From IMG/VR virus record IMGVR_UViG_2703718843_000003, positions 1 through 22,204 of that record: a stretch of DNA of 22,204 nt; one strand, given 5' to 3'. Positions 4,297 through 19,402 of the stretch are shown here, in pieces (the stretch's first letter is position 1; the number at the start of each line of letters is the position of its first letter). This DNA is from a virus (Duplodnaviria; Heunggongvirae; Uroviricota; Caudoviricetes). A model generated the notes under the pieces. That model was not told the DNA's origin, made no database searches, and worked only from the letters and a program-made list of their open reading frames with translations. The position numbers and the translations under genes were made by a program.

Positions 4297-4725
4297 GCCA
4301 GGCTATGACTTCGCCCAGTTCCATCGTGAAGACTTCAGAGGGCGGCCAGTTGAAAACAACCGCGATATCAGCGACCAGATCGTCGATCAGGTCGAACCGC
4401 AGGAGTGTTACTGATTCTCCGTCTCCGCCTCGCTCGACGCTCCAGACCCCGCAGGTGTCAAAAAAGGGACGAGCGCTTCAGACAGGCTGACAAAATCGCG
4501 CGTATCCATTTCGTTGATTTCGGTCTGTTTGAGGCGTGGTGACGTGACACGGGTCAGCAGTACCGCCACCGAATCCACATCCATATTCATCACGTTGACC
4601 AGCTTCAGACCGCGCAGGGAGCCAGCCTGTTTGATCTCATCCGTGATCGTTACCTGAGTAATTTTCTCATCGCCGCGAACAACGGGTTTTGCCAGAGTAA
4701 TGGCGTTATCGTTTTTTTTGCTCAT
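4247..4725 (-). CDS. E': gpE+E' fusion made by programmed -1 ribosomal frameshift
   Basis: After a -1 slip at T TTT TTG (+ strand 4459-4465) the reading frame stays open for about 70 codons (DTCGVWSVERGG...WPPSEVFTMELGEVIAWRERAAVRSGASDSEKP) and ends at TAA 4247-4249, overlapping the start of T. Hand-translated from the sequence. Confidence 0.6.
4408..4725 (-). CDS. E: Tail assembly chaperone gpE (zero-frame product)
   Basis: Starts MSKKNDNAITLAKPVV with GGAG 11 nt upstream of ATG at 4725; upstream of T on the same strand as in P2; contains the slippery site near its 3' end. Confidence 0.8.
   Translation of the reverse strand: MSKKNDNAITLAKPVVRGDEKITQVTITDEIKQAGSLRGLKLVNVMNMDVDSVAVLLTRVTSPRLKQTEINEMDTRDFVSLSEALVPFLTPAGSGASSEAETENQ
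4459..4465 (-). other. Slippery heptamer T-TTT-TTG for the E to E' -1 frameshift
   Basis: Minus-strand CCC TTT TTT GAC in the gpE frame; the canonical X XXY YYZ heptamer used by P2-like and lambda-like tail chaperone pairs. Confidence 0.6.
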
Positions 4726-4773
4726 TGTTGAATGCTCCGGGCGGCAAGGCTGTGCCGCCACTTATCAGGTTAA

Positions 4774-5289
4774 TCAGTTACCCATTCCCAGCGCAGACGT
4801 GATGCGGTCAGGGTAGATATTTTTGCCGTCTTTCTTGTAGATGAAGTTCAGAAGATCAAACTCAAACAGCGGCTTATCGTCGATGGTGAGTTTGTAATAA
4901 GTGTTCTTCATCGTGTAGCTGACGGAGGTGTCTTCTCCCTGCTTGCTTTCGCCGCCGTCCATTTCGGTGATGCGGCCGCGCAGTTCGACCTCAACCAGCA
5001 GGCTTTCACCATCGGTGTAATACTCCCCGGCGAAGCGGAAACGGGTTTCGTCGATATCGCCGCAGTAGTTCAGCAGTAACGACTGAACCAGACCGCCAAC
5101 CACCATCGTGGTATCCAGCGCGCCACTGTCCAGACCGAGATCCACCGCAGCGGAGCCAATCATCCCGCCCCCCTGAAAATCTTCAGTTTTACGGGTCAGT
5201 TTTGGCAGCGTCACGGAAGAGACTTTGCCGATGCAGTTGCTGCCGTTCACAAAGCAGGTGAACAGGCGTAGTTTGTGAGGAACCGCCAT
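4774..5289 (-). CDS. FII: Tail tube protein gpFII
   Basis: 171-aa ORF immediately downstream of the sheath gene (FI stop and FII ATG adjacent at 5290/5289); size and position match P2 FII. Confidence 0.9.
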   Translation of the reverse strand: MAVPHKLRLFTCFVNGSNCIGKVSSVTLPKLTRKTEDFQGGGMIGSAAVDLGLDSGALDTTMVVGGLVQSLLLNYCGDIDETRFRFAGEYYTDGESLLVEVELRGRITEMDGGESKQGEDTSVSYTMKNTYYKLTIDDKPLFEFDLLNFIYKKDGKNIYPDRITSALGMGN

Positions 5290-6471
5290 TTATGCACCTC
5301 CCAGGGAAGAAAACGCCGATTCGAAATACTCGTCCGTGAAGGTCTGGTAGAGCGTAAGATCTTCCATTGGCGGAACCGGTGTATATTTATAGCGAATGCG
5401 CACCTGACCCTGACGGAGACCGGTTGTCGGGTTATCCAGGATATCAAACCAGCATTCAGCACCAATCAGCCGCCCCTGCGTCACCAGCGAATTGAGTTTG
5501 CCGCTGATGCCGCTGACCACGTCCTTGACGTTGGCCGGGGTTAGCGGTTCGTCCACTGATTCAAATTGCGCCTCAGCGATACTGTCAGCCAGAATCTGTG
5601 CCGTACGGGTGTAAACCTCAAAAATATAATCTTTGGTGTCCGTAACGCGGTTGCCCCAGAACCGGAAACCATTACGCTTGATGAGCGTCGTGATCTCCTT
5701 GTTGTTGAGTTCGTTCGCGTCGCTGTCTTCGGCCTGAAGCGACCAGAAAACATCCTGCGAAATACCCAGCACGTTGCTTACCGACACATTGGAAAGCGAT
5801 TTGTGCCAGCCCTGATTGTTGTCAATCAGCGCGCGAAGGCCGCAGGCATAGGCCGGGGCCGGGAAGGTTTCGTTCTCTCCGGTCAGCGGGTTGTAGGCGA
5901 TGAAATCAGGCCAGATAAGCATTAGCTCGCGATAGGCGAAGGTCGCACGATATGCGGTAGCTTCAGCCATCGTTTTGCAGCCGTAGCAACTGGCGTAAAC
6001 AAACGCGCGCAAATTCTGAGCAATCACACACAACGCAGAAGTGACTTCTTCCGTGTCGTAGCCCGGCACGGCCAGAATGCGTGGACGATAACCAACCTTC
6101 TGCTCGGCAGTCAGAAACGCGTACATGCCGGTATAGCTGCCGTCTTCTGCCGTGCCACCCATGATGAGCTGCGACTGCGTTTTACCGCCTTCCTCTTCCG
6201 TGGCTGCTGCCACGCGCACAACGATAACCTTCGGACTGGTCTGGTCAGCGATGGCTTTAAGCGTTTTGTACAGGGAGCCGGTTTTACCCGCCTTATCCAG
6301 CACGTTGTTAACCCGCGTCAGCAACACGGGGGTATTCAGGGGAAAGGTTTCCGCATCGGCATCATCCGCCACGGCAACGACCCCAATGACACTTGATTCA
6401 ATGTCATTGATGGCCGTCACCAGGTCGGTATTCTCCCGGACGCGTACACCGTGGAAACGTGTCTCTGACAT
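5290..6471 (-). CDS. FI: Contractile tail sheath protein gpFI
   Basis: Start chosen at ATG 6471 (MSETRFHGVRV...), preceded by GGTGG, matching the remembered P2 FI N-terminus MSDYHHGVQV; conserved C-terminal region (GFRFWGNR...YKYTPVPPMEDLT). The track ORF start at 6516 is an upstream extension. Confidence 0.9.
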   Translation of the reverse strand: MSETRFHGVRVRENTDLVTAINDIESSVIGVVAVADDADAETFPLNTPVLLTRVNNVLDKAGKTGSLYKTLKAIADQTSPKVIVVRVAAATEEEGGKTQSQLIMGGTAEDGSYTGMYAFLTAEQKVGYRPRILAVPGYDTEEVTSALCVIAQNLRAFVYASCYGCKTMAEATAYRATFAYRELMLIWPDFIAYNPLTGENETFPAPAYACGLRALIDNNQGWHKSLSNVSVSNVLGISQDVFWSLQAEDSDANELNNKEITTLIKRNGFRFWGNRVTDTKDYIFEVYTRTAQILADSIAEAQFESVDEPLTPANVKDVVSGISGKLNSLVTQGRLIGAECWFDILDNPTTGLRQGQVRIRYKYTPVPPMEDLTLYQTFTDEYFESAFSSLGGA

Positions 6472-6624
6472 GTTAGCCACCATTACGTTATTGAGTTCGC
6501 AGTGATAATCCCTCATGTTGGAATGTCACTCACGCTATTGCGGGTCTGGCCGGACGGCGACAACAAAAACCGATTTGGTGTCTCCCGCGCGCGTGGGATC
6601 CTTCGCCGGAAGAAGGGGGAAAGC

Positions 6625-7761
6625 ATGGCACTTACAGACCTGACAAAATCACTTAACGACGCCATCAGCACTTATAACGATTCACTGACCGAGGCGGTAA
6701 AAAGTCCGGGATTCAGCATAACGATGGGCGGTAAGGTACGGACGCAGCTTGACGAGCGGATCATGTCGTTGTCACTGACGGACAACCGGGGTTTTGATGC
6801 CGATCAGCTTTCCATTTCTATTGATGACAGTGACGGTATGGTTGCTCTGCCTCCGCGTGGCGCTGAGCTTGCGGTATCAATTGGCTGGCTGGGTGAGCCG
6901 CTGATTTACAAGGGACTGTACACGGTTGATGAGGTATCCCATGAAGGGCCGGGTGATATCATTGGTATTACTGCCCGCAGCGCTGATTTTCGTGAAGAGT
7001 TCAACGTAAAGCGCGAAGTCTCATGGCATGACGTGACCGTTGAGCGCGTTGTGTCGGCCATAGCGCACCGCTACGGTCTGAAAGCGCAGATCAGTGAAAT
7101 GCTCATGGATATTGAGATTGATCACGCTGACCAGACGCAGGAAAGCGATATGTCATTCCTTACCCGCATGGCGGAAATGCTGGGCGCAATTGCCACCGTA
7201 AAGAACGGCAGTCTGCTGTTTATCCTGCCGGGCGGAGGTGTTACCGCTGACGGGAAGGCGCTCCCCTCTGCCAGTATTAACCGGACGAGCGGCGATCGGC
7301 ACCGCTTTCGTATTGCCGATCGGGATGCGTATACCGGCGTCAGGGCTTACTGGCTGGATCTCAATTTTGGCAAAAAGAAAAAGGTCAGTGTTAAGCGCCG
7401 TAAGCCAGCAAAGCCCAAAAAAGAGAAGAGCAGCAGCCGTGAGGGCGATTACATGGAGGGCGCTGACGGTAACGTCTATGTGCTGCGCAAAACCTACCAG
7501 AATGAAGAGGCGGCGAAACGTGCTGCGGCGGCAAAATGGCAACAGCTTCAGCGTGGTGCGGCAGAGTTTTCGATCACCCTGGCGCGTGGCCGCGCTGAGC
7601 TTTACCCCGAAATGCATGTCACGGTTAGCGGTTTTAAGGATGAAATAGACAATCAGGACTGGATTATTGCGCGTGCTGAGCACGTCATAGACGACAGCGG
7701 TTTTACCACCCGGCTGGAGCTGGAAGCAAAAATACCTGACTGGATAGCGGAAACTGAATAA
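6625..7761 (+). CDS. D: Tail protein gpD (late control gene D family)
   Basis: ATG at 6625 with AAGGGGGA SD; sequence (SLTDNRGFDADQL..SWHDVTV..DRHRFRIADRDAYTGV..KWQQLQRGAAEFSI) matches my recollection of P2 gpD including the basic lysine-rich linker. Confidence 0.9.
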   Translation: MALTDLTKSLNDAISTYNDSLTEAVKSPGFSITMGGKVRTQLDERIMSLSLTDNRGFDADQLSISIDDSDGMVALPPRGAELAVSIGWLGEPLIYKGLYTVDEVSHEGPGDIIGITARSADFREEFNVKREVSWHDVTVERVVSAIAHRYGLKAQISEMLMDIEIDHADQTQESDMSFLTRMAEMLGAIATVKNGSLLFILPGGGVTADGKALPSASINRTSGDRHRFRIADRDAYTGVRAYWLDLNFGKKKKVSVKRRKPAKPKKEKSSSREGDYMEGADGNVYVLRKTYQNEEAAKRAAAAKWQQLQRGAAEFSITLARGRAELYPEMHVTVSGFKDEIDNQDWIIARAEHVIDDSGFTTRLELEAKIPDWIAETE

Positions 7762-7800
7762 AATGAAATGGAGTTCAACTCCCACAGGGGAGCCATCATT

Positions 7801-8049
7801 ATGTTCAGATGTCCATTTTGCGGCGCTATGGCCCGCACCCGTACCAGCCGTAAAATAACCGATATGACTATCCGGCAATATCACCAGTGTCAGAATCTGG
7901 AATGTAGCCGGTCATTCACCACGCTAAACAGCGTGGAAAGGGAAGTAACAAAGCGTGCAGGCACTGCACCGTTACCGCCTGACTTTATCCCCCGCGATGC
8001 TTTCCCGGCATCACATTACGGCAGAGACCAGCTTAATCTGGCTCTCTGA
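7801..8049 (+). CDS. ogr: Ogr/Delta-family zinc-finger late transcription activator
   Basis: MFRCPFCGAMARTRTSRKITDMTIRQYHQCQNLECSRSF carries the C-x2-C...C-x4-C finger and closely resembles remembered P2 Ogr; GGGGAG SD 8 nt upstream of ATG 7801; directly follows D as in P2. Confidence 0.85.
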   Translation: MFRCPFCGAMARTRTSRKITDMTIRQYHQCQNLECSRSFTTLNSVEREVTKRAGTAPLPPDFIPRDAFPASHYGRDQLNLAL

Positions 8050-8174
8050 CCACTGTCAAAGTGCCCCCGTAAATCCATTCAGTGCGGGGGCAACTTCAAG
8101 CAAAACGCTTTTTCCAGAGAAAATATCTTTGATAACATCGGTCAGCATATTAATAGCGATGATGGGATAGGGAT

Positions 8175-8558
8175 ATGAAAAAGGTGTTGTTAATACTGGC
8201 TTTGGTTTCTCTTGTTGGATGCAAGCCCAGCGCTGAAAAAGCTGTTGAACTAGGTAAGTCAGAAGTTGCAGCAGATGTTAGGGATCCAGATAGCGTAAAA
8301 TTTAGATATCTTCGATTTGTTCAGGGTGAGGATTCACCTGATGGTGCGGTCACTGGCTATGTTTGCGGTCAGATCAATGCGAAAAATGGCTTTGGGGCTT
8401 ACGAAGGATTCTCTCCATTCCTTATGAAAATAAGCATGAAATCAAAGGGTACATTTTCCAAGGGGGTCACCTACTCTGTAACGGAGAAGAAAATCTACAC
8501 CCGGTTTAGTGACCCAGTACCAGCGTCATACAAAGACAAGTGCGGCCCTGATGAGTGA
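8175..8558 (+). CDS. Secreted lipoprotein (cargo/moron gene), function unknown
   Basis: N-terminal signal peptide MKKVLLILALVSLVG followed by lipobox Cys (LVGC, Cys16) and K at +2; lower GC than flanking core genes; followed by a strong intrinsic terminator. Sits between ogr and the att region, where P2 itself has no gene as far as I recall. Confidence 0.75.
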   Translation: MKKVLLILALVSLVGCKPSAEKAVELGKSEVAADVRDPDSVKFRYLRFVQGEDSPDGAVTGYVCGQINAKNGFGAYEGFSPFLMKISMKSKGTFSKGVTYSVTEKKIYTRFSDPVPASYKDKCGPDE

Positions 8559-8576
8559 GGGATGTTTCAGTAAGAT

Positions 8577-8600
8577 GCCGGGCAGAAGCCCGGCTTTTTT
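8577..8600 (+). terminator. Rho-independent terminator after the lipoprotein gene
   Basis: GCCGGGC-AGAA-GCCCGGC perfect 7-bp stem followed by TTTTTT. Confidence 0.7.
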
Positions 8601-8693
8601 ATGTCGAAGTGTAGTCAAAATGTAGACGAAGTTTAGAATAAATCCTTTTATTCCAGTTTGTTACATGCGGAATATCTTCACCATCCCTGTCTT

Positions 8694-8720
8694 CCCCCAC
8701 ATGATGTGGGGGTTTTTTTT
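8694..8720 (+). terminator. Second hairpin plus T8 tract inside the att region
   Basis: CCCCCAC-ATGAT-GTGGGGG followed by TTTTTTTT; may be the reconstituted terminator of the host gene the phage integrates next to, or part of the attP core. Confidence 0.55.
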
Positions 8721-8732
8721 ATCAATCACTTA
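8720..8732. promoter_or_regulatory. IHF-consensus site (WATCAANNNNTTR) in the att region
   Basis: TATCAATCACTTA matches the IHF consensus exactly; located between the hairpin and the Int arm-type repeats. Confidence 0.35.
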
Positions 8733-8805
8733 CATCGGTTTCCGTAAGAAAACAGTAACTTAAGAAAACCTATAAGGGACTGGAAGGGCTACAAAGTTCT
8801 GAGAG

Positions 8806-8826
8806 TGTGGACACTATGTGGACACT
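8806..8826. repeat. Tandem direct repeat TGTGGACACT x2 (putative Int arm-type P' sites)
   Basis: Perfect 10-bp tandem copies separated by 1 bp, 12 bp from the int stop codon; matches the P2 Int arm-site consensus TGTGGACA as I remember it. Degenerate copies (GTGTAGTC, TGTAGACG) occur at 8609-8628 on the other side. Confidence 0.5.
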
Positions 8827-8838
8827 CAGAAGGGAAAT

Positions 8839-9819
8839 TTATAACGTCACTCCGCCTTTTAGAGGATTCAGCGCGACGGCATTTTGCAGGTAGTCAGGCG
8901 CAAGGTGCGCATAGGCCATCGTCTGCTGAATGCTCGCATGTCCCAGAATCTGTTGCAGTGCGATTATATTGCCCCCATTCATCATGAAATGGCTTGCGAA
9001 TGTATGCCGCAGGATGTGGGTTGCCTGATTGGGTGGTATATCTGGCTTCACTCTGCGTAAAATCCCGCAAAACTTCTCATAATCAACTTTGAATAATTTA
9101 GCGCTGGCCTCCTCTTTAACTTTTTTCTCCAGTTCCTCAGAAATCGGCACGGTTCGCTTTTTACCGTTTTTGGTTTTCAGGAAGGTAACCCTGCAATTTG
9201 TAATCTGTGCTGGTTTTAGCGTGGCAACTTCCGTCCATCTTCCTCCAGTGCTCAGACATAAAAGTGCGACAAGTAAGTCATCACCATCCAAAACATTTAA
9301 CAGTTTTTCGATTTCTGCCTTTTCCAGGAACGTCATTTCAGGGTTGGCCTCCGCCAGTGGCGGCAGTCCGTGAATTGGGTGTTGCCCGGAAAATTCATCC
9401 AATTGAATTAATTTTGTGAACATGCCGGATAATCGGTACATGTCACGGTTTATCGTTGCGGCACTGATACCATTTCGTAGTCGCATGGAACGATAATCCA
9501 TCAAAGCTCTTTTGCTCATCCGGCTCACTGGTATATCACCTATGCCGCTGATGGTTTTGAGCAGATGATTAAACTCTTTTGTTCCATGCTCGTGGTTTTG
9601 CCCGTGATATTTCCACCAGATGTCCAGCAACTCACTCAAAGTTCTGCGATCTGCTCGCTGACCTGCCCATTCTTTCTGGCTGGCGTAGGCGATTGTGTAT
9701 CGCTCAAATGCTACAGCCTCAGCTTTTCTTTCAAATTTCCTGCGGATGCGTTTTCCGTCGCGACCGCGAGGTCTAATGTCCACTTCATAGCGTCCATCAT
9801 CGAGCTTCTTAATTGACAT
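8839..9819 (-). CDS. int: Tyrosine integrase (P2 Int family)
   Basis: Start MSIKKLDDGRYEVDIRPRGRDG matches the remembered P2 Int N-terminus; C-terminal catalytic region with HxLRHT (ATHILRHTFASH) and the conserved Tyr context (MAYAHLAP). Confidence 0.9.
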   Translation of the reverse strand: MSIKKLDDGRYEVDIRPRGRDGKRIRRKFERKAEAVAFERYTIAYASQKEWAGQRADRRTLSELLDIWWKYHGQNHEHGTKEFNHLLKTISGIGDIPVSRMSKRALMDYRSMRLRNGISAATINRDMYRLSGMFTKLIQLDEFSGQHPIHGLPPLAEANPEMTFLEKAEIEKLLNVLDGDDLLVALLCLSTGGRWTEVATLKPAQITNCRVTFLKTKNGKKRTVPISEELEKKVKEEASAKLFKVDYEKFCGILRRVKPDIPPNQATHILRHTFASHFMMNGGNIIALQQILGHASIQQTMAYAHLAPDYLQNAVALNPLKGGVTL

Positions 9820-9888
9820 AAGAAAGCCCTCTGACGCTGTATTCACCATCTTGGTAACAAATGGTGAAAATGTAATGTTTATAGAGTG

Positions 9889-10182
9889 TTAACCAGTCTG
9901 TTTTTCGGAGTGGTCTGATTCTGTTGGTTTTTGCCCAATGTGTGCGAGAGCCGGCGCGATCTGACCAGCTTGTGGTGACGTATCACCAGTCATTAACCAG
10001 AGCGTATATTTTTTAAATAAAGGCGTATTTGTGACTCGCATAACGATGCTGAGACCAGGGTCTTTATGCCCACTTTCGTAATTTTTGACTGTTCCTAGAG
10101 CTATCCCGCTAATTTCGCTGAATTTCGCCTGTGTTAAGCCTTCTGCTTTCCTAATCGCTTTCAGTTTTTCGAATGTCTGCAT
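9889..10182 (-). CDS. C: Immunity repressor C (P2 C family, HTH)
   Basis: 97 aa; N-terminal HTH and C-terminal TKYTLWLMTGD...QAGQIAPALAHIGQ match the remembered P2 C repressor; divergent from cox with face-to-face promoters. Confidence 0.85.
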   Translation of the reverse strand: MQTFEKLKAIRKAEGLTQAKFSEISGIALGTVKNYESGHKDPGLSIVMRVTNTPLFKKYTLWLMTGDTSPQAGQIAPALAHIGQKPTESDHSEKQTG

Positions 10183-12091: not shown

Positions 12092-12363
12092 GTATTCGTA
12101 TCGAAATTGGCGAACGTTATGTCGTTACCAGTGACAGCTTTCAGTTTATTCTCCACGAGAAAAAGAGAGCGGAAAGCGGTAAAAACGCCGGTCAGGAGTG
12201 GCTGGCGGTGGTTGGTTATTACCCGAAATTAAGCCAGCTCGTTTCCGGCCTGATGCATCACGATATTCTGACCGGAAGCGCAAAGTCTTTTGCTGATTTA
12301 AACGCGCAGGTTGAGCAACTCAGCAAGCGTTGTTCAGAGGCTTTTGGCTCATATGACCGTTAA
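12088..12363 (+). CDS. Hypothetical protein (P2 orf83 position)
   Basis: 91-aa ORF overlapping the start of gene A. Confidence 0.5.
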   Translation: MSIRIEIGERYVVTSDSFQFILHEKKRAESGKNAGQEWLAVVGYYPKLSQLVSGLMHHDILTGSAKSFADLNAQVEQLSKRCSEAFGSYDR

Positions 12364-14629
12364 AGCCTCCGGGCATTTTGTCCCTCCGTCAGCATTTGCC
12401 GCAGGCACCGGTGAGACGTTTACCGGTGCTTATGCATGGAACGCGCCACGCGAGGCCGTCGGGCGCGAAAGACCCCTTACACGTGACGAGATGCGTCAGG
12501 TGCAAGGTGTTTTATCCACGATTAACCGCCTGCCTTACTTTTTGCGCTCGCTGTTTACTTCACGCTATGACTACATCCGGCGCAATAAAAGCCCGGTACA
12601 CGGGTTTTATTTCCTCACATCCACTTTTCAGCGTCGTTTATGGCCGCGCATTGAGCGCGTGAATCAGCGCCATGAAATGAACACCGACGCGTCGTTGCTG
12701 TTTCTGGCAGAGCGTGACCACTATGCGCGTCTGCCGGGGATGAATGACAAGGAGCTGAAAAAGTTTGCCGCCCGTATTTCATCGCAGCTTTTCATGATGT
12801 ATGAGGAACTCTGCGATGCCTGGGTGGATGCGCATGGCGAAAAAGAATCACTGTTTACGGATGAGGCGCAGGATCATCTGTATGGTCATGTTGCTGGCGC
12901 TGCACGTGCTTTCAATATTTCCCCGCTCTACTGGAAAAAATACCGTAAAGGACAGATAACCACGAGGCAGGCATATTCTGCCATTGCCCGCCTGTTTAAC
13001 GATGAGTGGTGGACTCATCAGCTTAAAGGCCAGCGTATGCGCTGGCATGAAGCGTTACTGATAGCTGTCGGGGAGGTCAATAAAGACCGTTCTCCTTATG
13101 CCAGTAAACATGCCATTCGTGATGTGCGTGCGCGCCGCCAGGCAAATCTGGAATTTCTTAAATCGTGTGACCTTGAAAACAGGGAAACCGGCGAGCGCAT
13201 CGACCTTATCAGTAAGGTGATGAGCAGTATTTCTAATCCTGAAATTCGCCGGATGGAGCTGATGAACACCATTGCCGGTATTGAGCGTTACGCCGCTGCA
13301 GAGGGTGATGTGGGGATGTTTATCACGCTGACCGCGCCGTCAAAGTATCACCCGACACGTCAGGTCGGAAAAGGCGAAAGTAAAACCGTCCAGCTTAATC
13401 ACGGCTGGAATGATGAGGCATTTAATCCAAAGGATGCGCAGCGATATCTCTGCCATATCTGGAGCCTGATGCGCACGGCATTCAAGGATAATGATTTACA
13501 GGTCTACGGTTTGCGAGTCGTCGAGCCACACCACGACGGAACGCCGCACTGGCATATGATGCTTTTTTGTAATCCACGCCAGCGTAACCAGATTATCGAA
13601 ATCATGCGTCGCTATGCGCTCAAAGAGGATGGCGACGAAAGAGGAGCCGCGCGAAACCGTTTTCAGGCAAAACACCTTAACCGGGGCGGTGCTGCGGGGT
13701 ATATCGCGAAATACATCTCAAAAAATATCGACGGCTATGCACTGGATGGTCAGCTCGATAACGATACCGGCAGACCGCTGAAAGACACTGCCGCGGCTGT
13801 TACCGCATGGGCGTCAACGTGGCGCATTCCGCAATTTAAAACGGTTGGCCTGCCGACAATGGGGGCTTACCGTGAACTACGCAAATTGCCTCGCGGCGTC
13901 AGCATTGCTGATGAGTTTGACGAACGCGTCGAGGCTGCACGCGCTGCCGCAGACAGTGGCGATTTTGCGCTGTATATCAGCGCGCAAGGTGGGGCAAATG
14001 TCCCGCGCGATTGTCAGACTGTCAGGGTTGCCCGTAGCCCGTCGGATGACGTTAACGAGTATGAGGAAGAAGTCGAGAGAGTGGTCGGCATTTACGCGCC
14101 TCATCTCGGCGCGCGTCATATTCATATCACCAGAACGACGGACTGGCGCATTGTGCCGAAAGTGCCAGTCGTTGAGCCTTTGACTTTAAAAAGCGGCATC
14201 GCCGCGCCTCGGAGTCCTGTCAATAACTGTGGAAAGCTCACCGGTGGTGATACTTCGTTACCGGCTCCCACACCTTCTGAACACGCCGCAGCAGTGCTTA
14301 ATCTGGTTGATGACGGTGTTATCGAATGGAATGACCCGGAGGTCGTGAGGGCGCTCAGGGGCGCATTAAAATACGGGCTGAGAACACCAAATCGTCAGCA
14401 GAGAAACGGAAGCCCGTTAAAACCACATGAAATTGCACCATCGGCCAGACTGACCCGGTCGGAAAGAATGCAAATTACCCGTATCCGCGTTGACCTTGCT
14501 CAGAACGGTATCAGGCCGCAGCGATGGGAGCTTGAGGCGCTGGCGCGTGGCGCGACCGTAAATTATGACGGGAAACCTTTCACTTATCAGGTCGCTGATG
14601 ATTGGCCGGGATTTTTGTTACCCATTTGA
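12353..14629 (+). CDS. A: Replication initiation endonuclease gpA (rolling-circle nickase)
   Basis: Start MTVKASGHFVPPSAFAAGTGETFTGAYAWNAPREAVGRERPLTRDEMRQ is near-identical to the remembered P2 gpA; contains the HUH-like GTPHWHMMLF region and the active-site Tyr region AGYIAKYISKNIDGYAL. Confidence 0.9.
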   Translation: MTVKASGHFVPPSAFAAGTGETFTGAYAWNAPREAVGRERPLTRDEMRQVQGVLSTINRLPYFLRSLFTSRYDYIRRNKSPVHGFYFLTSTFQRRLWPRIERVNQRHEMNTDASLLFLAERDHYARLPGMNDKELKKFAARISSQLFMMYEELCDAWVDAHGEKESLFTDEAQDHLYGHVAGAARAFNISPLYWKKYRKGQITTRQAYSAIARLFNDEWWTHQLKGQRMRWHEALLIAVGEVNKDRSPYASKHAIRDVRARRQANLEFLKSCDLENRETGERIDLISKVMSSISNPEIRRMELMNTIAGIERYAAAEGDVGMFITLTAPSKYHPTRQVGKGESKTVQLNHGWNDEAFNPKDAQRYLCHIWSLMRTAFKDNDLQVYGLRVVEPHHDGTPHWHMMLFCNPRQRNQIIEIMRRYALKEDGDERGAARNRFQAKHLNRGGAAGYIAKYISKNIDGYALDGQLDNDTGRPLKDTAAAVTAWASTWRIPQFKTVGLPTMGAYRELRKLPRGVSIADEFDERVEAARAAADSGDFALYISAQGGANVPRDCQTVRVARSPSDDVNEYEEEVERVVGIYAPHLGARHIHITRTTDWRIVPKVPVVEPLTLKSGIAAPRSPVNNCGKLTGGDTSLPAPTPSEHAAAVLNLVDDGVIEWNDPEVVRALRGALKYGLRTPNRQQRNGSPLKPHEIAPSARLTRSERMQITRIRVDLAQNGIRPQRWELEALARGATVNYDGKPFTYQVADDWPGFLLPI

Positions 14630-14814
14630 GTAAAAATACAGCGTGATTTTATATGTCTTTGAATGGATTATGCGAAGCACCTCTAAGGTAGATGAGGAGC
14701 AATAGTGTGTTGAATCAGAAGGCTAAATTGTATTGAATCGTTAGCATGTAATTGAAGGCAGCTATTTGATTCGAGTCATAAAAGAGCATCTATTTCGGTT
14801 AATAAAACCATTGC

Positions 14815-14860
14815 GAGTGACTTTATGTCGAAGCATAATTCATCTCGAGCGAAGTCTTGC
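14815..14860. repeat. Direct repeat copy 1 (GAGTGACT ... GAGCGAAGTCTTGC)
   Basis: Shares an 8-mer and a perfect 14-mer with copy 2 at 15100-15124; copy 1 has a 24-bp internal expansion. Confidence 0.45.
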
Positions 14861-14889
14861 TAGTCTTTCATCGGATTGATGACGGGCGC

Positions 14890-14919
14890 AAAAAAACCAC
14901 CCTGGCAGGTGGTTTTTTT
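14890..14919. terminator. Bidirectional rho-independent terminator (A7-CCACC..GGTGG-T7)
   Basis: Symmetric hairpin flanked by an A run and a T run; closes the replication operon on + and the small minus-strand ORF on -. Confidence 0.65.
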
Positions 14920-14931
14920 GTTTGAAGCATA

Positions 14932-15045
14932 CTAAAGAAAAATACTTACATGGATATTACTGACGTTTACTGACAAACCACTCGGACTACCATATGGATA
15001 GCCAAAGAGGGCCAGAACGAGAATGCAGTAATAGCACTTCTTCAT
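14932..15045 (-). CDS. Candidate 37-codon mini-gene encoding a small hydrophobic Cys-containing peptide
   Basis: Minus-strand AGGAGG SD 4 nt before ATG (15045); peptide MKKCYYCILVLALFGYPYGSPSGLSVNVSNIHVSIFL; stop TAG at 14932-14934 followed 13 nt later by the bidirectional terminator. Not in the ORF track (below its length cutoff). Coding status unproven. Confidence 0.3.
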   Translation of the reverse strand: MKKCYYCILVLALFGYPYGSPSGLSVNVSNIHVSIFL

Positions 15046-15099
15046 ATCGCCTCCTGTAAGCAGAGGGCAATTTCCGCCGATATATGCGCTTCTAAGGCG

Positions 15100-15124
15100 G
15101 AGTGACTATTGAGCGAAGTCTTGC
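15100..15124. repeat. Direct repeat copy 2 (GAGTGACTATTGAGCGAAGTCTTGC)
   Basis: See copy 1; the two copies bracket the terminator and the mini-ORF. Confidence 0.45.
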
Positions 15125-15701
15125 CCTGAAATAATGCTCTGTTTAAACGCAAAGTGATCTGGCATATCACTGAACAGAGAACCTGAACAACACAACATAT
15201 AGTATGTCGTTGTTTCTGGTTGCATTTTATGTTGTGTAATACTGGTTTTGCATCAAGGATGTTTGAGCTTTTTTTGATATAGCTCAAAGTAAAAAGCAGA
15301 GACTACGGATGATAAGGTCTTGAAAGCAATGTAAATTTTTTAAAGTTGTGAGTGGCTAGAAATGCACAGTTTCAATATGGCGGATTTAAACAAGTAATTA
15401 AAAATAGCGCCATAAATTCCAATAAAATCATTATGTTGCGTTTTCTGTGGAAACTGCGGTGACTCTGAAATTTTCTTTTAGTGTCGCTGAGGTTTAACAA
15501 CTCGCTGCGCAAGTAGTTAGTGTTTTTTTAACTCAATATCCTGATTTATAAGGTTTTTTATAAATCGTTGGCTGATTGCGCGTATTCATCTCGTGTTATC
15601 AGCAAAGATAAGCGCTATATGCAAAACTGAATGCATATATGATGTCGAAAATGTTATGGGAAAACGTGGATTAGTGTTATAGTAATGGCTGAAAAACAGC
15701 A

Positions 15702-15740
15702 TTGACATAAAATAACAACTGTGATATGGCTGTGCATACT
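15702..15740 (+). promoter_or_regulatory. Putative sigma70 promoter for the peptidase/membrane-protein pair
   Basis: TTGACA at 15702-15707; weak -10 candidates TATGGC (17-bp spacer, TG at -15/-14) or CATACT; about 30-60 bp upstream of a strong AGGAGG SD. Confidence 0.35.
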
Positions 15741-15766
15741 TAACTTTTTTAACGTAGGAGGCAACC

Positions 15767-16252
15767 ATGAGCTATGCAGCTAAAAAACTGCTTGACCGCT
15801 ATTGGGATCGCCGACTACCTGTCGATCCGTTTAAGCTTGCTAAAGCGTGGGGTGCTCGTGTTGAAGCACTTGAGGAATCGGCTTATAACAACGATGGGTT
15901 AAGCGGTCTGGCTGTCATCAAAAAGGGTGTCCATAGGATTTATTTTGATTCTAGTGAACATTCTAATCGTCAACGTTTTACTGTTGCACACGAGTTAGGT
16001 CATCATGTGCTGGGGCATACCCAGGACGGAGAGTACCATCGGGATAATGTCGGGAATTATTCAACAGGTGCTCGTGATTACCGTGAGGTTGAAGCAAACA
16101 AGTTTGCTGCTGAGTTGTTAATGCCTGAGTCTGCTATACGTCAATTGGTATCCAGAGAAGGTATTGATAGCACTTTGAGATTAGCAAGCATCTTTAATGT
16201 ATCAGAAGCCGCTATGCATTGGCGCTTAAAGAGCTTAGGAATGGCTTATTAA
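15767..16252 (+). CDS. ImmA/IrrE-family (M78-like) zinc metallopeptidase, orphan (no adjacent HTH partner)
   Basis: HEXXH motif H75-E-L-G-H79 followed by the family signature E107-V-E-A-N-K-F-A-A-E-L-L-M-P; ideal SD AGGAGG 5 nt upstream of ATG; AT-rich codon usage. Confidence 0.8.
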   Translation: MSYAAKKLLDRYWDRRLPVDPFKLAKAWGARVEALEESAYNNDGLSGLAVIKKGVHRIYFDSSEHSNRQRFTVAHELGHHVLGHTQDGEYHRDNVGNYSTGARDYREVEANKFAAELLMPESAIRQLVSREGIDSTLRLASIFNVSEAAMHWRLKSLGMAY

Positions 16253-16278
16253 TTAGCCTTTAACTTTTAACCTGTTTA

Positions 16279-16318
16279 AAATCACCTTTACGTTTGTACA
16301 TGTAAGGGTGATTTTTTT
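16279..16318 (+). terminator. Intergenic hairpin plus T7 tract (terminator/attenuator) that also contains the only SD-like sequence for the downstream gene
   Basis: AAATCACC (16279-16286) pairs with GGTGATTT (16307-16314), 20-nt loop, T run 16312-16318 ending at the ATG of the membrane-protein ORF; AAGGGTG in the 3' arm lies 8 nt before that ATG. Confidence 0.45.
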
Positions 16319-16918
16319 ATGGCTGATATTGATTTATCTGGACAGTCCCCAGAGCAAGGAACCACTCCTAAGGGCGATTTAGATCCTGATATCCTTATAA
16401 GGCGAGATCGACGCGATGGTATAGAGCGTAGAAGTATGCGATTAGTGCTCTCTGCCGTTGTGCTTTGTTTTGCTTGTACATTTCTATGGCAGGGGCTTAA
16501 CTTTGCTTTGGCTGTTGGAAATGGCTTGCTGGAAGCGAAAAGCAGTATTGCCACAGCGATAACACAAAAAGTAGATGCACAAACTTGTGTTTCAGCAGAA
16601 AAATGTTCTGCTTTATCTGCGGATCCGAAGATGGCTGATGAGAGGATAACACCATCTTCAGACACTAATAAAGTTAGAAAATCTATTTCTGGTTTATCCA
16701 CCGATTGGTTATCGGCCAGTTCTCTAATAGCTATTGTTGCATTCATCCTTGGTGTGGGTTTAACTTTGCTTTTGACTCTTCTTAAATCAGCATTTCAACA
16801 CCCGACAGATAAAGACTTTAGAACAAAGTCGACATCTAATACTATTGAGTTGGCCACGCCAATCAGTGAATTAATAATTGGTGTTCTGAATATAATTAAA
16901 GACAAACTATCTAAGTAA
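16319..16918 (+). CDS. Membrane protein with two predicted TM helices and a soluble N-terminal Arg/Asp-rich region
   Basis: Hydrophobic stretches RLVLSAVVLCFACTFLWQGLNFALAVG and LIAIVAFILGVGLTLLLTLL; no recognisable catalytic motif; 5' end uncertain (alternative Met at 16436). Confidence 0.65.
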   Translation: MADIDLSGQSPEQGTTPKGDLDPDILIRRDRRDGIERRSMRLVLSAVVLCFACTFLWQGLNFALAVGNGLLEAKSSIATAITQKVDAQTCVSAEKCSALSADPKMADERITPSSDTNKVRKSISGLSTDWLSASSLIAIVAFILGVGLTLLLTLLKSAFQHPTDKDFRTKSTSNTIELATPISELIIGVLNIIKDKLSK

Positions 16919-16959
16919 AGCATTAGTTGTGATTTTTTATTGGTTTTAGTGATAATACA

Positions 16960-16994
16960 TCTCCAGTACTTATTGCTACTGGAGAGTATTTTTA
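16960..16994. terminator. Bidirectional terminator between convergent cargo genes
   Basis: TCTCCAGTA-(8 nt loop)-TACTGGAGA perfect 9-bp stem followed by T-rich tract on +; 16 nt from the stop of the minus-strand 313-aa gene. Confidence 0.6.
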
Positions 16995-17000
16995 GTCGTT

Positions 17001-17942
17001 TTATATTTTTAATGTTAGTGAATGATATTCACGAGAGTTCACGTTCGATGTGATGTAATCGGGGGCGTTAACACCAAGAATCGCAACGAGCAATCGGCAA
17101 ATTAAAGCCTGCATTTGTTGTAATATGTCATCTCCATATTGATAATTGTTAATAGTGGTAAAGCCAAGTGGTTGACCATGAAACATAGCTTCATGAAAGT
17201 TTTCATTGCGGATGTTTGTAATGTTTTTTTTGCCTGTAACCCATGATGGTCGTGGTATGCCATAAGTTTTGCAGATCCACTTCAAGCGCCTGGAGTGATT
17301 TAGAGTCTTTTCTGTACACTTGTTCTTTTCTGCCCATGTTAAAGCAAAGCAACTATCCAGTGCCATATAAAGATACTGGAATTTTTCGAAGCTAAGGTAT
17401 TGTGGGTTTTGGGATAAAAATAGTGCATGCACTATTGCTGCTATATTTATTGGTGCGTGTTTGGTTTTTTTCTCGCTAGACATGTATTTGAGTGCTAATT
17501 CTATAACCTCTTTTTCAGAGCACTTGACCAGAATAAAGTCAGTTAATTTGCTGGGTTTTATTGGGGTTGCGTCTAAAAAACCGGCATCAGTAGTTGTTAA
17601 TCTTATCCCTTTGAAAAAAGACAGACACCACACAGCAAAATTGAGAGTTTCTAGTGAAGATGTATTTTTTAATTTTAGTGAGTGTGTTTTGGGTAAGCCA
17701 AATACTCGTTGGCTAAAAGGCATTGTGGATATGCCTCCATTGAGGTTATATACTTCTTGGTTTCCTGGGTATATCCAACCGTTAATAACATTTCTGTGAT
17801 TGTTTATAAGATTTGTTTTTTCCGCTAGACCGGGTAAAGTAAGTAAAGAAAAATCATCAGTTTCAACGTTAACCTCTACTGGATAGTATCCAAACTCAGC
17901 TTCAATATCATTGGATTGCTGTTCGTCAACTTTACCTTGCAT
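17001..17942 (-). CDS. Hypothetical 313-aa cargo protein, unknown family; possible HEPN-like R-x4-H motif
   Basis: Own SD (GGAG 6 nt before ATG 17942), AT-rich promoter-like sequences upstream, own terminator; R245-N-E-N-F-H250 (nt 17193-17210) fits the R-x4-6-H pattern of HEPN RNases, but no other HEPN evidence from inspection. Confidence 0.7.
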   Translation of the reverse strand: MQGKVDEQQSNDIEAEFGYYPVEVNVETDDFSLLTLPGLAEKTNLINNHRNVINGWIYPGNQEVYNLNGGISTMPFSQRVFGLPKTHSLKLKNTSSLETLNFAVWCLSFFKGIRLTTTDAGFLDATPIKPSKLTDFILVKCSEKEVIELALKYMSSEKKTKHAPINIAAIVHALFLSQNPQYLSFEKFQYLYMALDSCFALTWAEKNKCTEKTLNHSRRLKWICKTYGIPRPSWVTGKKNITNIRNENFHEAMFHGQPLGFTTINNYQYGDDILQQMQALICRLLVAILGVNAPDYITSNVNSREYHSLTLKI

Positions 17943-18179
17943 ACATTGCTCCGGTCAAAAATAGGCTCGATAATTCTCGTAAGCCTATCATGTTCGCAAA
18001 GTATCCATACCTGTGGATTTTGTAAATTTAAGTTGATTTGTCATTAAATAAGCCGTGCATGCAACAAGTGAATGTTTTTGCATGCGTCGGGGATGCCCGT
18101 TCCGGCTGCTTGCGGTCAGAGCTGGTGCGGATCCATAGTATCTAAGCAACTGCATTAAAACCGCCCTATGAAGCGGGCG

Positions 18180-18198
18180 GGCGAGGCGGGGAAAGCAC
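18180..18198. other. cos cohesive-end sequence GGCGAGGCGGGGAAAGCAC
   Basis: Exact match to the 19-nt cohesive end of P2/186/P4 as I remember it, located between the cargo island and gene Q, where cos lies in the circular P2 map. Confidence 0.7.
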
Positions 18199-18340
18199 TG
18201 CGCGCTGGCGGTGGTGCTGATTTTATTTTTTCAGCGTCTGAGCGCGTCGTGAAGGCGCTTAGTCTGCCCGTTGAGGCGTTGGTGTGTCTGCGGGGTGTTT
18301 TGTGCGGTGGTGAGCGTGTGAGGGCGTGATGACGGGGTGT

Positions 18341-18362
18341 AAAAAAGCCGCCCGCAGGCGGC
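18341..18362 (-). terminator. Terminator of the Q-P late transcript
   Basis: GCCGCC-CGCA-GGCGGC hairpin preceded on + by A6 (a U tract after the hairpin on the minus-strand transcript), 5 nt past the Q stop. Confidence 0.5.
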
Positions 18363-18367
18363 GATGT

Positions 18368-19402
18368 TCAGCCGTTGTCAGTGTCCAGTGAGTAGTTTTT
18401 AAAGCGGATGACCTCCTGACCGAGCCAGCCGTTTATCTCGCGGATCCTGTCCTGTAGCGGGATAAGCTCATTGCGGACAAAGACCTTTGCCACTTTCTCA
18501 ATATCACCCAGCGACCCGACGTTCTCCGGCTTGCCGCCCATCAACTGAAAGGGGATGCGGTGCGCGTCCAGCAGGTCAGCGGCGCTGGCTTTTTTGATAT
18601 TAAAAAAATCGTCCTTCGTCGCCACTTCACTGAGCGGGATAATTTTAATGCCGTCGGCTTTCCCCTGCGGGGCATAGAGAAACAGGTTTTTAAAGTTGTT
18701 GCGGCCTTTCGACTTCACCATGTTTTCGCGGAGCACTTCGATATCGTTGCGATCCTGCACGGCATCGGTGACGTACATGATGTATCCGGCATGTGCGCCG
18801 TTTTCGTAATACTTGCGGCGGAACAGCGTGGCCGACTCATTCAGCCAGGCAGAGTTAAGGGCGCTGAGATATTCCGGCAGGCCGTACAGCTCCTGATTAA
18901 TATCCGGCTCCAGCAGGTGAAACACGGAGCCGGGCGTGAAGGCTGTCGGCTCGTTGAAGGACGGCACCCACCAGTAAACATCCTCCTCCACGCCACGACG
19001 GGTATATTTGGCCGGTGAGGTTTCCAGTCTGATGACCTTACCGGTGGTGCTGTAACGCTTTTCCAGAAACGCATTACCGAACACCAGAAAATCCAGCACA
19101 AAGCGGCTGAAATCCTGCTGGGAAAGCCACGGATGCGGGATAAATGTCGAGGCCAGAATATTACGTTTGACGTAAATCGGGGAGCTGTGATGCACGGCAG
19201 CACGCAGGCTTTTTGCCAGACCGGTAAAGCTGATTGGTGGCTCATACCATCTGCCGTTACTGATGCACTCGACGTAATCCAGAATGTCACGGCGGTCGAG
19301 TACCGGCACCGGCTCACCAAAGGTGAATGCCTCCATTTTCGGGGCGCTGGCGGTCATTTTTTTTGCCGCAGGTTGCGGTGTTTTCCCTTTTTTCTTGCTC
19401 AT
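18368..19402 (-). CDS. Q: Portal protein gpQ
   Basis: 344 aa; position next to cos and downstream of P with TGATG stop/start overlap; sequence resembles remembered P2 Q. Confidence 0.9.
   Translation of the reverse strand: MSKKKGKTPQPAAKKMTASAPKMEAFTFGEPVPVLDRRDILDYVECISNGRWYEPPISFTGLAKSLRAAVHHSSPIYVKRNILASTFIPHPWLSQQDFSRFVLDFLVFGNAFLEKRYSTTGKVIRLETSPAKYTRRGVEEDVYWWVPSFNEPTAFTPGSVFHLLEPDINQELYGLPEYLSALNSAWLNESATLFRRKYYENGAHAGYIMYVTDAVQDRNDIEVLRENMVKSKGRNNFKNLFLYAPQGKADGIKIIPLSEVATKDDFFNIKKASAADLLDAHRIPFQLMGGKPENVGSLGDIEKVAKVFVRNELIPLQDRIREINGWLGQEVIRFKNYSLDTDNG

What the first reader, a model, noticed from the sequence alone, without database searches (positions are those of the whole stretch)
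17001..17942. Convergent 313-aa orphan with an R-x4-H motif (possible HEPN-type RNase effector)
This gene is its own unit on the opposite strand, which is typical of single-gene abortive-infection proteins in prophage hotspots. I recognise no family by eye, but residues 245-250 (RNENFH) fit the R-x4-6-H catalytic signature of HEPN nucleases and sit in the C-terminal third, as in several Abi proteins. This is a weak motif-level hint.
Basis: inference. Interest (0 to 1): 0.7.

Follow-up and report, generated by a model that had tools for sequence, protein, structure and literature searches.

The report
Uncharacterised HEPN-like prophage defence candidate
A 313-residue gene in the variable cargo slot of a P2-type prophage belongs to a large, unnamed protein family whose C-terminal half looks like a HEPN RNA-cutting domain with a nearly invariant R-N-x3-H-E motif. 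This makes it a good but untested candidate for a single-protein anti-phage suicide nuclease.

Summary
**Observation.** It is confirmed. ORF 17001..17942 (-) encodes 313 aa, and RNENFH is residues 245-250.

**The motif.** Alone it is at chance level: R-x4-6-H appears in 50% of shuffles. Across 47 homologs down to 26% identity, H250 is invariant, R245 is kept in 46/47, N246 in 43/47, and position 251 is always E or D.

**Structure.**

**Context.**
- The gene sits in the P2 gpA-to-portal defence hotspot, 238 bp from cos. Its GC is 37% against about 54% in the flanks.
- Rousset et al. 2022 list this exact protein as unannotated single-gene system no. 11 (218 loci). It is not in their table of evaluated systems.
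- Homologs occur in other prophages, plasmids and an integrative island beside Gabija, with no conserved partner.

**Databases.** Pfam, PADLOC and NCBIfam give no hit.

The parts
17001..17942 (-). Coding sequence of the 313-aa protein. It is identical to WP_001517496, 74% identical in protein to ORF313 of P2-EC67, and matches phrog_5937.
   Evidence: ORF list. RefSeq annotates the same CDS as hypothetical. PHROG hit at 3e-205 with unknown function. ORF313 of P2-EC67 at 74% identity. GC 36.8%.
17517..17942 (-). N-terminal alpha+beta domain, residues 1-142, of unknown fold. H87 and G112 are invariant. T86, R114, D135, W56 and F17-G18 are nearly invariant. Proposed to be the sensor or regulatory domain.
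17004..17516 (-). C-terminal helical HEPN-like domain, residues 143-313. Helices are 143-155, 163-176, 184-205 (invariant E186), 216-227 (H216, R219), 241-255 (motif) and 273-288 (invariant R283).
17193..17210 (-). Codons for R245-N-E-N-F-H250, the putative HEPN catalytic motif. The family consensus is R-N-x3-H-E.
   Evidence: Searches give the position. Searches give the conservation.
17949..17952 (-). Shine-Dalgarno GGAG, 6 nt upstream of the ATG.
   Evidence: Sequence read. An RBS is also annotated at the equivalent place in the P2-EC67 record.
16960..16985 (.). Inverted repeat (9-bp stem, 8-nt loop) between the two convergent stop codons. Candidate bidirectional terminator.
   Evidence: scores it on both strands. 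Sequence read. This is a consensus-level match only.
18017..18044 (-). Weak sigma-70-like promoter candidate (ATGACA, 16 nt, CAAAAT) about 75 nt upstream of the start codon.
   Evidence: It matches 9 of 12 positions, and the number of such sites in the region equals the chance expectation, so this is a candidate only.
18180..18198 (+). P2/P4-type cos cohesive-end sequence GGCGAGGCGGGGAAAGCAC. It places the gene at the cos-proximal end of the hotspot.
   Evidence: Exact string found. The linear phage genome OQ383618 ends here. The same string appears in the cloned P4 sequences of Rousset Table S2. Its identity as the cohesive end rests on my knowledge of P2/P4.
18347..18362 (-). GC-rich hairpin plus T-run immediately after the portal (Q) stop codon. 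It would insulate the gene from late-operon read-through.

Best explanation
The gene encodes a stand-alone, prophage-carried immune effector of the 'sensor domain plus HEPN RNase' type.

**Shown here**
- It is an independently mobile single gene in the P2 gpA-Q/cos cargo hotspot.
- It belongs to a large two-domain family.
- The C-terminal half is predicted to be a HEPN-like helical bundle carrying a nearly invariant R-N-x3-H-E motif.
- The N-terminal half is a conserved domain of unknown fold.

**Inferred by analogy with ApeA, DARNA/PD-T7-3, DS-11 and HepT**
- The protein is made in the lysogen and dimerises through the HEPN domains to build a composite active site.
- The site is kept inactive until the N-terminal domain, or a pocket between the two domains, senses an infection cue.
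- It then cleaves RNA without metal. The most likely target is tRNA anticodon loops, otherwise mRNA or rRNA. Cleavage leaves 2',3'-cyclic phosphate ends.
- Translation stops and the competing phage's infection is aborted.
For: **Motif**
- H250 is 47/47, R245 46/47, N246 43/47 and E/D251 47/47 across homologs down to 26% identity.
- The polar residue after R and an invariant acidic residue (E186) in an upstream helix fit the HEPN description.

**Fold**
- The AF2 model has pLDDT 81.7 and pTM 0.83.

**Topology**
- The motif lies in helix 241-255, followed by a loop and helix 273-288. An extra helix (216-227) sits between the putative H2 and H3.

**Context**
- The gene lies between replication endonuclease gpA and portal Q, 238 bp from cos. 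GC is 37% against 50-59% in the flanks. This locus is the published P2 defence hotspot.
- The exact protein is listed there as single-gene system no. 11, with 218 loci.

**Independence from neighbours**
- Neighbours differ in P2-EC67 and in Klebsiella P2-like prophages.
- ImmA+2TM is listed as a separate system and occurs without this gene.
- No neighbour family is shared by more than 5 of 39 diverse loci.

**Other homolog contexts**
- An integrative island beside Gabija in P. aeruginosa.
- A moron in a P22-like Acinetobacter prophage.
- A small plasmid among toxin-antitoxin pairs.
- A conjugative plasmid near DUF4238, which Rousset validated as a defence.
- Neighbours in diverse genomes include MADS, type IIG restriction-modification, PDC-S49, resolvases and conjugation genes.

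**Database name**
Against: **No sequence-profile link to HEPN**
- There is no Pfam, NCBIfam or PADLOC hit for the protein or for 88 homologs.
- The only traces are two sub-threshold HEPN hits, E 0.07 and 0.15, in 2 of 47 members.
- The UniProt name could not be reproduced.
- hhalign against DS-11 and against a 3-sequence HEPN mini-profile found nothing. Those profiles were shallow.

**Weak structural support**
- Foldseek against the PDB found nothing.
- The motif helix and the loop after it are the least confident part of the model, with pLDDT 63, 52 and 48.
- The typical E-x3-[KR] second motif is absent: E186 is followed at +4 by Y190.

**Context is not proof of defence**
- 5 of the 8 additional P2 hotspot systems cloned by Rousset showed no defence.
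- The Aeromonas homolog lies among housekeeping genes.

**No experiment exists.**
Confidence: 0.6

Rival explanations
1. The molecule is the same (a HEPN-type toxin) but the biology differs. It would act as an addiction or competition module that stabilises the prophage, or excludes related P2-like phages or P4 satellites, rather than as a general anti-phage defence. A yet unseen antitoxin, protein or RNA, could hold it in check.
For: HEPN toxins are common in toxin-antitoxin pairs (HepT-MNT; one search hits 7ae2, 5yep and 8xdj). A plasmid homolog lies among BrnT/A and RelE/ParE pairs. P2 hotspot cargo is reported to act against related P2-like phages.
Against: No conserved neighbour exists in 39 loci, so there is no MNT-type partner. 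The flanks hold no tandem repeats or Rfam RNA, so there is no ToxI/AbiF-like RNA antitoxin. The conserved 140-residue N-domain fits an in-cis regulator better.
Confidence: 0.15
2. The helical domain is HEPN-like only in shape, and the protein is some other enzyme or ligand-binding protein. Its conserved polar residues (H87, R114, D135, E186, H216, R219, H250, R283) would form a non-RNase active site or a nucleotide-binding pocket.
Against: HEPN domains that have lost RNase function typically lose the R-x4-6-H motif, whereas here it is the most conserved feature. The polar N after R and the E after H are kept too.
Confidence: 0.15
3. It is cargo with a non-immune role, such as counter-defence against host systems, lysogenic conversion or virulence.
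For: P2 hotspots also carry partitioning systems and cytolethal distending toxin. The function has not been tested.
Against: There is no signal peptide or transmembrane segment. The family is spread across plasmids, integrative elements, chromosomes and distant phyla rather than tied to phage genomes. The fold and motif point to a nuclease.
Confidence: 0.07

Closest known systems
ApeA (Gao et al. 2020; mechanism in bioRxiv 10.64898/2026.01.26.701840)
   Same: Both are single-gene systems with a C-terminal HEPN domain carrying RNxxxH and an N-terminal region of unknown homology. In ApeA, a ligand pocket between the N-terminal and HEPN domains switches on tRNA anticodon cleavage. That is the working model proposed here.
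   Different: ApeA is about 580 aa, almost all alpha-helical, with three domains, and forms decamers or dodecamers. This protein is 313 aa with a beta-rich N-domain. There is no PADLOC hit at all, so presumably no ApeA model matched, and no Pfam HEPN_Apea hit.
DARNA / PD-T7-3 (bioRxiv 10.64898/2026.02.22.705581)
   Different: In DARNA the HEPN domain is N-terminal and the C-terminal domain is a 300-residue helical solenoid. It is 456 aa long. There is no sequence match.
DS-11 (CBS-HEPN) and other HEPN systems validated with DefensePredictor (PMC13092281)
   Same: DS-11 is one protein with an N-terminal small-ligand-type sensor and a C-terminal HEPN domain with RNDVMH. Defence is lost when the catalytic residues are mutated.
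   Different: The N-domain differs (CBS there, unknown fold here). hhalign finds no relation. This protein's sequence strings are absent from that paper's held supplementary tables, several of which were truncated when stored.
HepT-type minimal HEPN toxins (PDB 7ae2, 5yep, 8xdj) and the Csm6 HEPN domain (8jbc)
   Different: Those proteins work with an MNT antitoxin or a CARF sensor. Here there is no partner gene, and the N-domain is unrelated to CARF.
P2 hotspot cargo such as old, tin and DUF4238 (Rousset et al. 2022, PMC9122126)
   Same: It occupies the same genomic slot between gpA and Q/cos and shows the same swap-in, swap-out behaviour. It is listed in the same catalogue as system no. 11.
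   Different: Those have demonstrated anti-phage phenotypes and different biochemistry. This one is not in their table of evaluated systems.

Membership tests
HEPN superfamily (Anantharaman et al. 2013) | [quoted passage not shown] | tested here: met
HEPN superfamily (Anantharaman et al. 2013) | Conserved R-x4-6-H motif with a polar residue (N, D or H) right after R. | tested here: met
   The family motif is R245-N246-x3-H250. H is 47/47, R 46/47 and N 43/47.
HEPN superfamily (Anantharaman et al. 2013) | The motif lies at the end of helix 3, at the start of the H3-H4 loop, and is exposed. | tested here: inconclusive
   DSSP puts 245-250 in the second half of helix 241-255, followed by loop 256-272 and helix 273-288.
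HEPN superfamily (Anantharaman et al. 2013) | A second conserved acidic residue in helix 2, typically E-x3-[KR]. | tested here: inconclusive
   E186 is invariant (47/47) at the start of helix 184-205. The residue at +4 is Y190, not K or R. Spatial proximity to the motif was not measurable.
HEPN superfamily (Anantharaman et al. 2013) | A detectable sequence-profile relationship to an established HEPN family. | tested here: not met
   No Pfam or NCBIfam hit at E of 10 or below for the protein. Among 47 homologs there was only one HEPN_RiboL-PSP hit (E 0.074) and one HEPN_Apea hit (E 0.15). hhalign against DS-11 and a small HEPN profile gave probabilities below 1%. HHpred with deep profiles was not available.
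HEPN superfamily (Anantharaman et al. 2013) | Homodimer with a composite active site and metal-independent RNase activity. | not testable with these tools
   Only monomer prediction is offered, and no biochemistry is possible.
ApeA defence system (PADLOC/DefenseFinder ApeA; Pfam PF18739) | A match to the ApeA or HEPN_Apea models. | tested here: not met
   PADLOC returned zero families for the protein and no defence family for its homologs. There was no PF18739 hit, including for the member that UniProt names Apea-like.
ApeA defence system (PADLOC/DefenseFinder ApeA; Pfam PF18739) | A protein of about 550-600 aa with helical N-terminal, Mid and split HEPN domains. | tested here: not met
   This protein is 313 aa with a beta-rich N-domain of about 140 aa.
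HepT-MNT type II/VII toxin-antitoxin | An adjacent nucleotidyltransferase (MNT) antitoxin gene. | tested here: not met
   No conserved neighbour exists in 39 loci. The window neighbours are an ImmA peptidase, a 2-TM protein and the portal gene.
RNA-antitoxin Abi systems (ToxIN, AbiF type) | A tandem-repeat or structured antitoxin RNA next to the toxin gene. | tested here: not met
   There are no tandem repeats in 14500-18500 apart from a 19-bp GC run inside gpA. No Rfam family matched in the window.
MAE_18760/MAE_28990 HEPN-like nucleases (some have a beta-rich N-domain of about 120 aa) | A match to the NCBIfam model of that family. | tested here: not met
   The NCBIfam scan gave zero families. 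The architectural resemblance was noted only from Table 2 of Anantharaman 2013.
P2-like phage cos-proximal defence hotspot cargo (Rousset et al. 2022) | Located between gpA and portal gpQ next to cos, variable between otherwise similar prophages, and of atypical composition. | tested here: met
   gpA is at 12311..14629 and portal at 18368..19402. cos is at 18180-18198. GC is 37% against 50-59%. Other P2-like phages match only the flanks. The protein is listed as system no. 11.

The most novel reading that the evidence does not exclude
Probability: 0.2. Interest if true: 0.7.

Novelty: new variant of a known kind. Interest (0 to 1): 0.5.

Why it matters
This protein is the 11th most frequent cargo system in the E. 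coli P2 hotspot, with 218 loci in Rousset's census. It is present in 47 of 5,426 complete E. coli genomes. Its family has more than 650 clusters at 50% identity across several phyla. Despite that, it has no name, no domain annotation and no test.

If it is a HEPN abortive-infection nuclease, it would fill one of the larger remaining blanks in the P2 defence catalogue. It would also add a small, single-polypeptide sensor-RNase with a new sensor fold. Such a protein is attractive for working out how HEPN effectors are switched on, and possibly as a programmable or ligand-gated RNase.

If it is not, it is still a common prophage cargo gene whose role in lysogens is unknown.

Tried and rejected
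3. **RNR R2 hits** with the A1 profile (E about 0.02, a 41-residue stretch) look like local compositional similarity and were ignored.
4. **The UniProt name** 'Apea-like HEPN' for P0062 could not be reproduced with the current Pfam.
5. **hhalign** of the family profile against DS-11 and against three 'HEPN family nuclease' sequences found nothing. Shallow profiles make this uninformative rather than negative.
6. **Foldseek against the PDB** found nothing. AFDB50 was unavailable.
7. **Domain fusions** in 10 longer homologs: none found.
8. **Conserved partner gene:** none. The only recurrent neighbours belong to one syntenic element shared by 5 genomes.
9. **RNA antitoxin or structured RNA:** none.
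10. **Ogr-type late promoter** (TGT-N12-ACA) upstream of the gene: none.
11. **Prior experimental tests.**
    - The accession is not in the searchable literature.
    - The protein is not in the table of evaluated systems of Rousset 2022, the held DefensePredictor supplements or the Vassallo 2022 supplements.
    - WP_097419291 (311 aa, listed there as the D295 system) looked like a possible match by length, but it is an unrelated protein.
    - Brenes and Laub 2025 and the supplements of the 2026 NAR P2/P4 paper were not available.

Full report
**1. Observation**

The window contains an ORF at 17001..17942 on the minus strand. It is 313 aa and starts with ATG. A GGAG lies 6 nt upstream. Residues 245-250 read RNENFH, the only R-x4-6-H in the protein.

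The gene converges on a 199-aa ORF at 16319..16918 (+). The 82-bp spacer holds a 9-bp-stem inverted repeat at 16960-16985, scored as terminator-like on both strands. The description is therefore accurate.

The motif alone carries no weight. R-x4-6-H appears at least once in 50% of shuffles of this protein, and RNxxxH in 1.8%.

**2. Where it sits**

The window is a P2-like (Peduovirus) prophage:
- RefSeq annotates replication endonuclease gpA upstream, and portal, terminase, scaffold and capsid genes downstream.
- The 19-nt string GGCGAGGCGGGGAAAGCAC, which I know as the P2/P4 cohesive end, is at 18180-18198. A linear phage genome that is 99% identical ends there.
- The gene therefore starts 238 bp from cos, at the cos-proximal end of the gpA-to-Q interval.
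- A strong hairpin plus T-run follows the portal stop codon at 18347-18362.
- GC is 37% across 14.6-18.0 kb, against 50-59% in the flanking core genes.

Rousset et al. 2022 showed that this interval is a hotspot of anti-phage systems, with 1,650 gene arrangements. Their Table S5B lists this exact 313-aa sequence as system no. 11. It is a single gene seen 218 times, with no Pfam domain and no comment.

The neighbouring Peptidase_M78 plus 2-TM pair is listed separately as system no. 21, with 148 occurrences.

The protein's sequence strings do not occur in their table of evaluated systems. They are also absent from the held supplements of DefensePredictor and Vassallo 2022. The accession is not in the searchable literature. 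The homolog in P2-EC67 was deposited as 'ORF313, hypothetical'.

**3. The family**

The gene is not an orphan:
- A word-indexed search found 603 clusters.
- An exhaustive HMM search found 652 representatives at 50% identity, 193 of them below 1e-30. Nearly all are about 290-325 aa and match end to end.
- Genome hits span Gamma-, Beta- and Alphaproteobacteria, Planctomycetota and Acidobacteriota.
- The exact protein is on 488 contigs and in 47 of 5,426 complete E. coli genomes.

No Pfam, NCBIfam or PADLOC model matches the protein or 88 homologs. Only PHROG 5937 (unknown function) matches.

In 47 sequences at 26-48% identity to the query:
- The invariant positions are H87, G112, E186, H250, G260 and R283.
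- R245 is 46/47, N246 43/47 and E/D251 47/47.
- T86, R114, D135, H216 and R219 are at least 90% conserved.

**4. Structure**

AlphaFold2 on a 41-sequence alignment gave pLDDT 81.7 and pTM 0.83:
- Residues about 10-140 form an alpha+beta domain.
- Residues 143-297 are helical (143-155, 163-176, 184-205, 216-227, 241-255, 273-288).

*C-domain.*
- These align 100-149 residues, which is most of each minimal HEPN domain.
- The arrangement fits the published HEPN description. An invariant acidic residue sits in the putative helix 2, an insert helix follows, R-N-x3-H lies late in helix 3, and then come a loop and helix 4.

*Weak points.*
- Foldseek against the PDB found nothing.
- pLDDT over residues 241-270 is only 48-63.
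- The E-x3-[KR] variant of the second motif is not present.
- No sequence-profile link to a HEPN family was obtained.

**5. A single-gene unit**

Neighbours change while the gene stays:
- ORF226 in P2-EC67.
- A 243-aa protein in Klebsiella P2-like prophages, in the same cos-proximal position.
- An integrative island with DUF932/ParB genes and Gabija in P. aeruginosa.
- The space between the portal and capsid modules of a P22-like prophage in Acinetobacter.
- Toxin-antitoxin pairs on a 20-kb Acinetobacter plasmid.
- FRG and DUF4238 genes on a Burkholderia conjugative plasmid.

ImmA-containing P2 phages exist without this gene. In 39 diverse genomic loci no neighbour family recurs in more than 5, and those 5 share one syntenic element.

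Neighbours within ±3 genes include MADS, type IIG restriction-modification, PDC-S49, a CBASS-type JAB/E1-E2 protein, resolvases, conjugation genes and phage capsids. They also include housekeeping genes.

No tandem repeat or Rfam RNA flanks the gene. No domain fusions occur in longer homologs.

**6. How it most likely works**

*Shown:* an independently mobile, conserved two-domain protein in a defence hotspot, with a HEPN-like C-domain and a conserved R-N-x3-H-E.

*Inferred from established HEPN biology and from ApeA, DARNA and DS-11:*
- Two HEPN domains pair to form a composite, metal-independent RNase site.
- The N-domain, or an inter-domain pocket lined by the other conserved polar residues, keeps the site closed until an infection signal is sensed.
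- RNA is then cut, plausibly at tRNA anticodon loops, and the infected cell stops growing.

I put about 0.8 on 'HEPN-type domain with a functional R/H site' and about 0.6 on the full defence-RNase reading.

**7. Rivals**

- A HEPN toxin used for prophage addiction or competition between related phages (0.15).
- A HEPN-shaped but non-RNase enzyme or binding protein (0.15).
- Non-immune cargo (0.07).

**8. Comparison and novelty**

It works like ApeA, DARNA or DS-11: a sensor plus a HEPN domain in one polypeptide. It fails membership of each family by sequence, size and N-domain. It lacks the partners that define HepT-MNT or RNA-antitoxin Abi systems.

I class it as a new variant of a known kind: a new HEPN-type family with a new N-terminal domain, catalogued but never annotated or tested.

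**9. Score**

Another HEPN abortive-infection protein would not astonish a specialist. Set against that are its abundance in the P2 hotspot, its wide phyletic spread, its small size and its unknown sensor fold. These make it a worthwhile, directly testable candidate. Interest is 0.5.

Noticed in passing
window 15767-16918 (+): A two-gene module sits next to the target. It is a 161-aa ImmA/IrrE (Peptidase_M78) metalloprotease that matches PADLOC capP at 1e-30 and RmrA models, followed by a 199-aa protein with predicted transmembrane segments (phrog_8096). No HTH/ImmR-type partner is visible. Rousset 2022 lists it as separate P2-hotspot system no. 21 (148 loci) with unknown function.
   Followed up: partly
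window 14630-15766: About 1.1 kb of AT-rich sequence (38-42% GC) between gpA and the ImmA gene has no annotated gene in RefSeq. It contains a GC hairpin flanked by A- and T-runs around 14888-14920, and a 37-codon ORF encoding a hydrophobic peptide (14932..15045, minus strand; MKKCYYCILVLALFGYP...). It could be a small membrane peptide, a toxin, or a remnant of swapped cargo.
   Followed up: no
window 18161-18198: The P2/P4-type cos string is at 18180-18198. A GC hairpin plus T-run at 18161-18180 (minus strand) abuts it, overlapping it by one base. The target gene's upstream control region therefore shares space with the packaging site.
   Followed up: partly
L011-L014 (Aeromonas veronii), gene at 6001-6963: The 49%-identical Aeromonas homolog lies 105 bp downstream of, and on the same strand as, a 403-aa AlkZ-like gene (PF06224, winged-helix DNA glycosylase family). 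Both sit in a chromosomal region of housekeeping genes. It may be a two-gene island or a coincidence.
   Followed up: no
L028, L029, L031, L034, L039 (Xanthomonas, Achromobacter, Albidiferax, Thauera): Five distant Beta- and Gammaproteobacteria carry the homolog inside the same syntenic block. The neighbours are about 183, 85, 422 and 610 aa on the opposite strand, and 418, 115 and 174 aa upstream. This suggests one mobile element that ferries the gene between genera.
   Followed up: no
protein residues 13-70 (window about 17733-17906): The family profile shows weak similarity to bacterial RyR-repeat domains (E 0.0029 for a two-repeat chimera; the shared pattern includes W-x-Y). The fold search did not support it. 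A RyR-domain gene also happens to lie in the Acinetobacter prophage that carries a homolog (L010).
   Followed up: yes
L061 (Burkholderia cenocepacia HI2424 plasmid), 2502-10090: The 40%-identical plasmid homolog is flanked by a 1,105-aa hypothetical protein, an FRG-domain protein and a DUF4238 protein. DUF4238 is the family that Rousset validated as an anti-T7 defence. The cluster looks like an unannotated defence islet.
   Followed up: no
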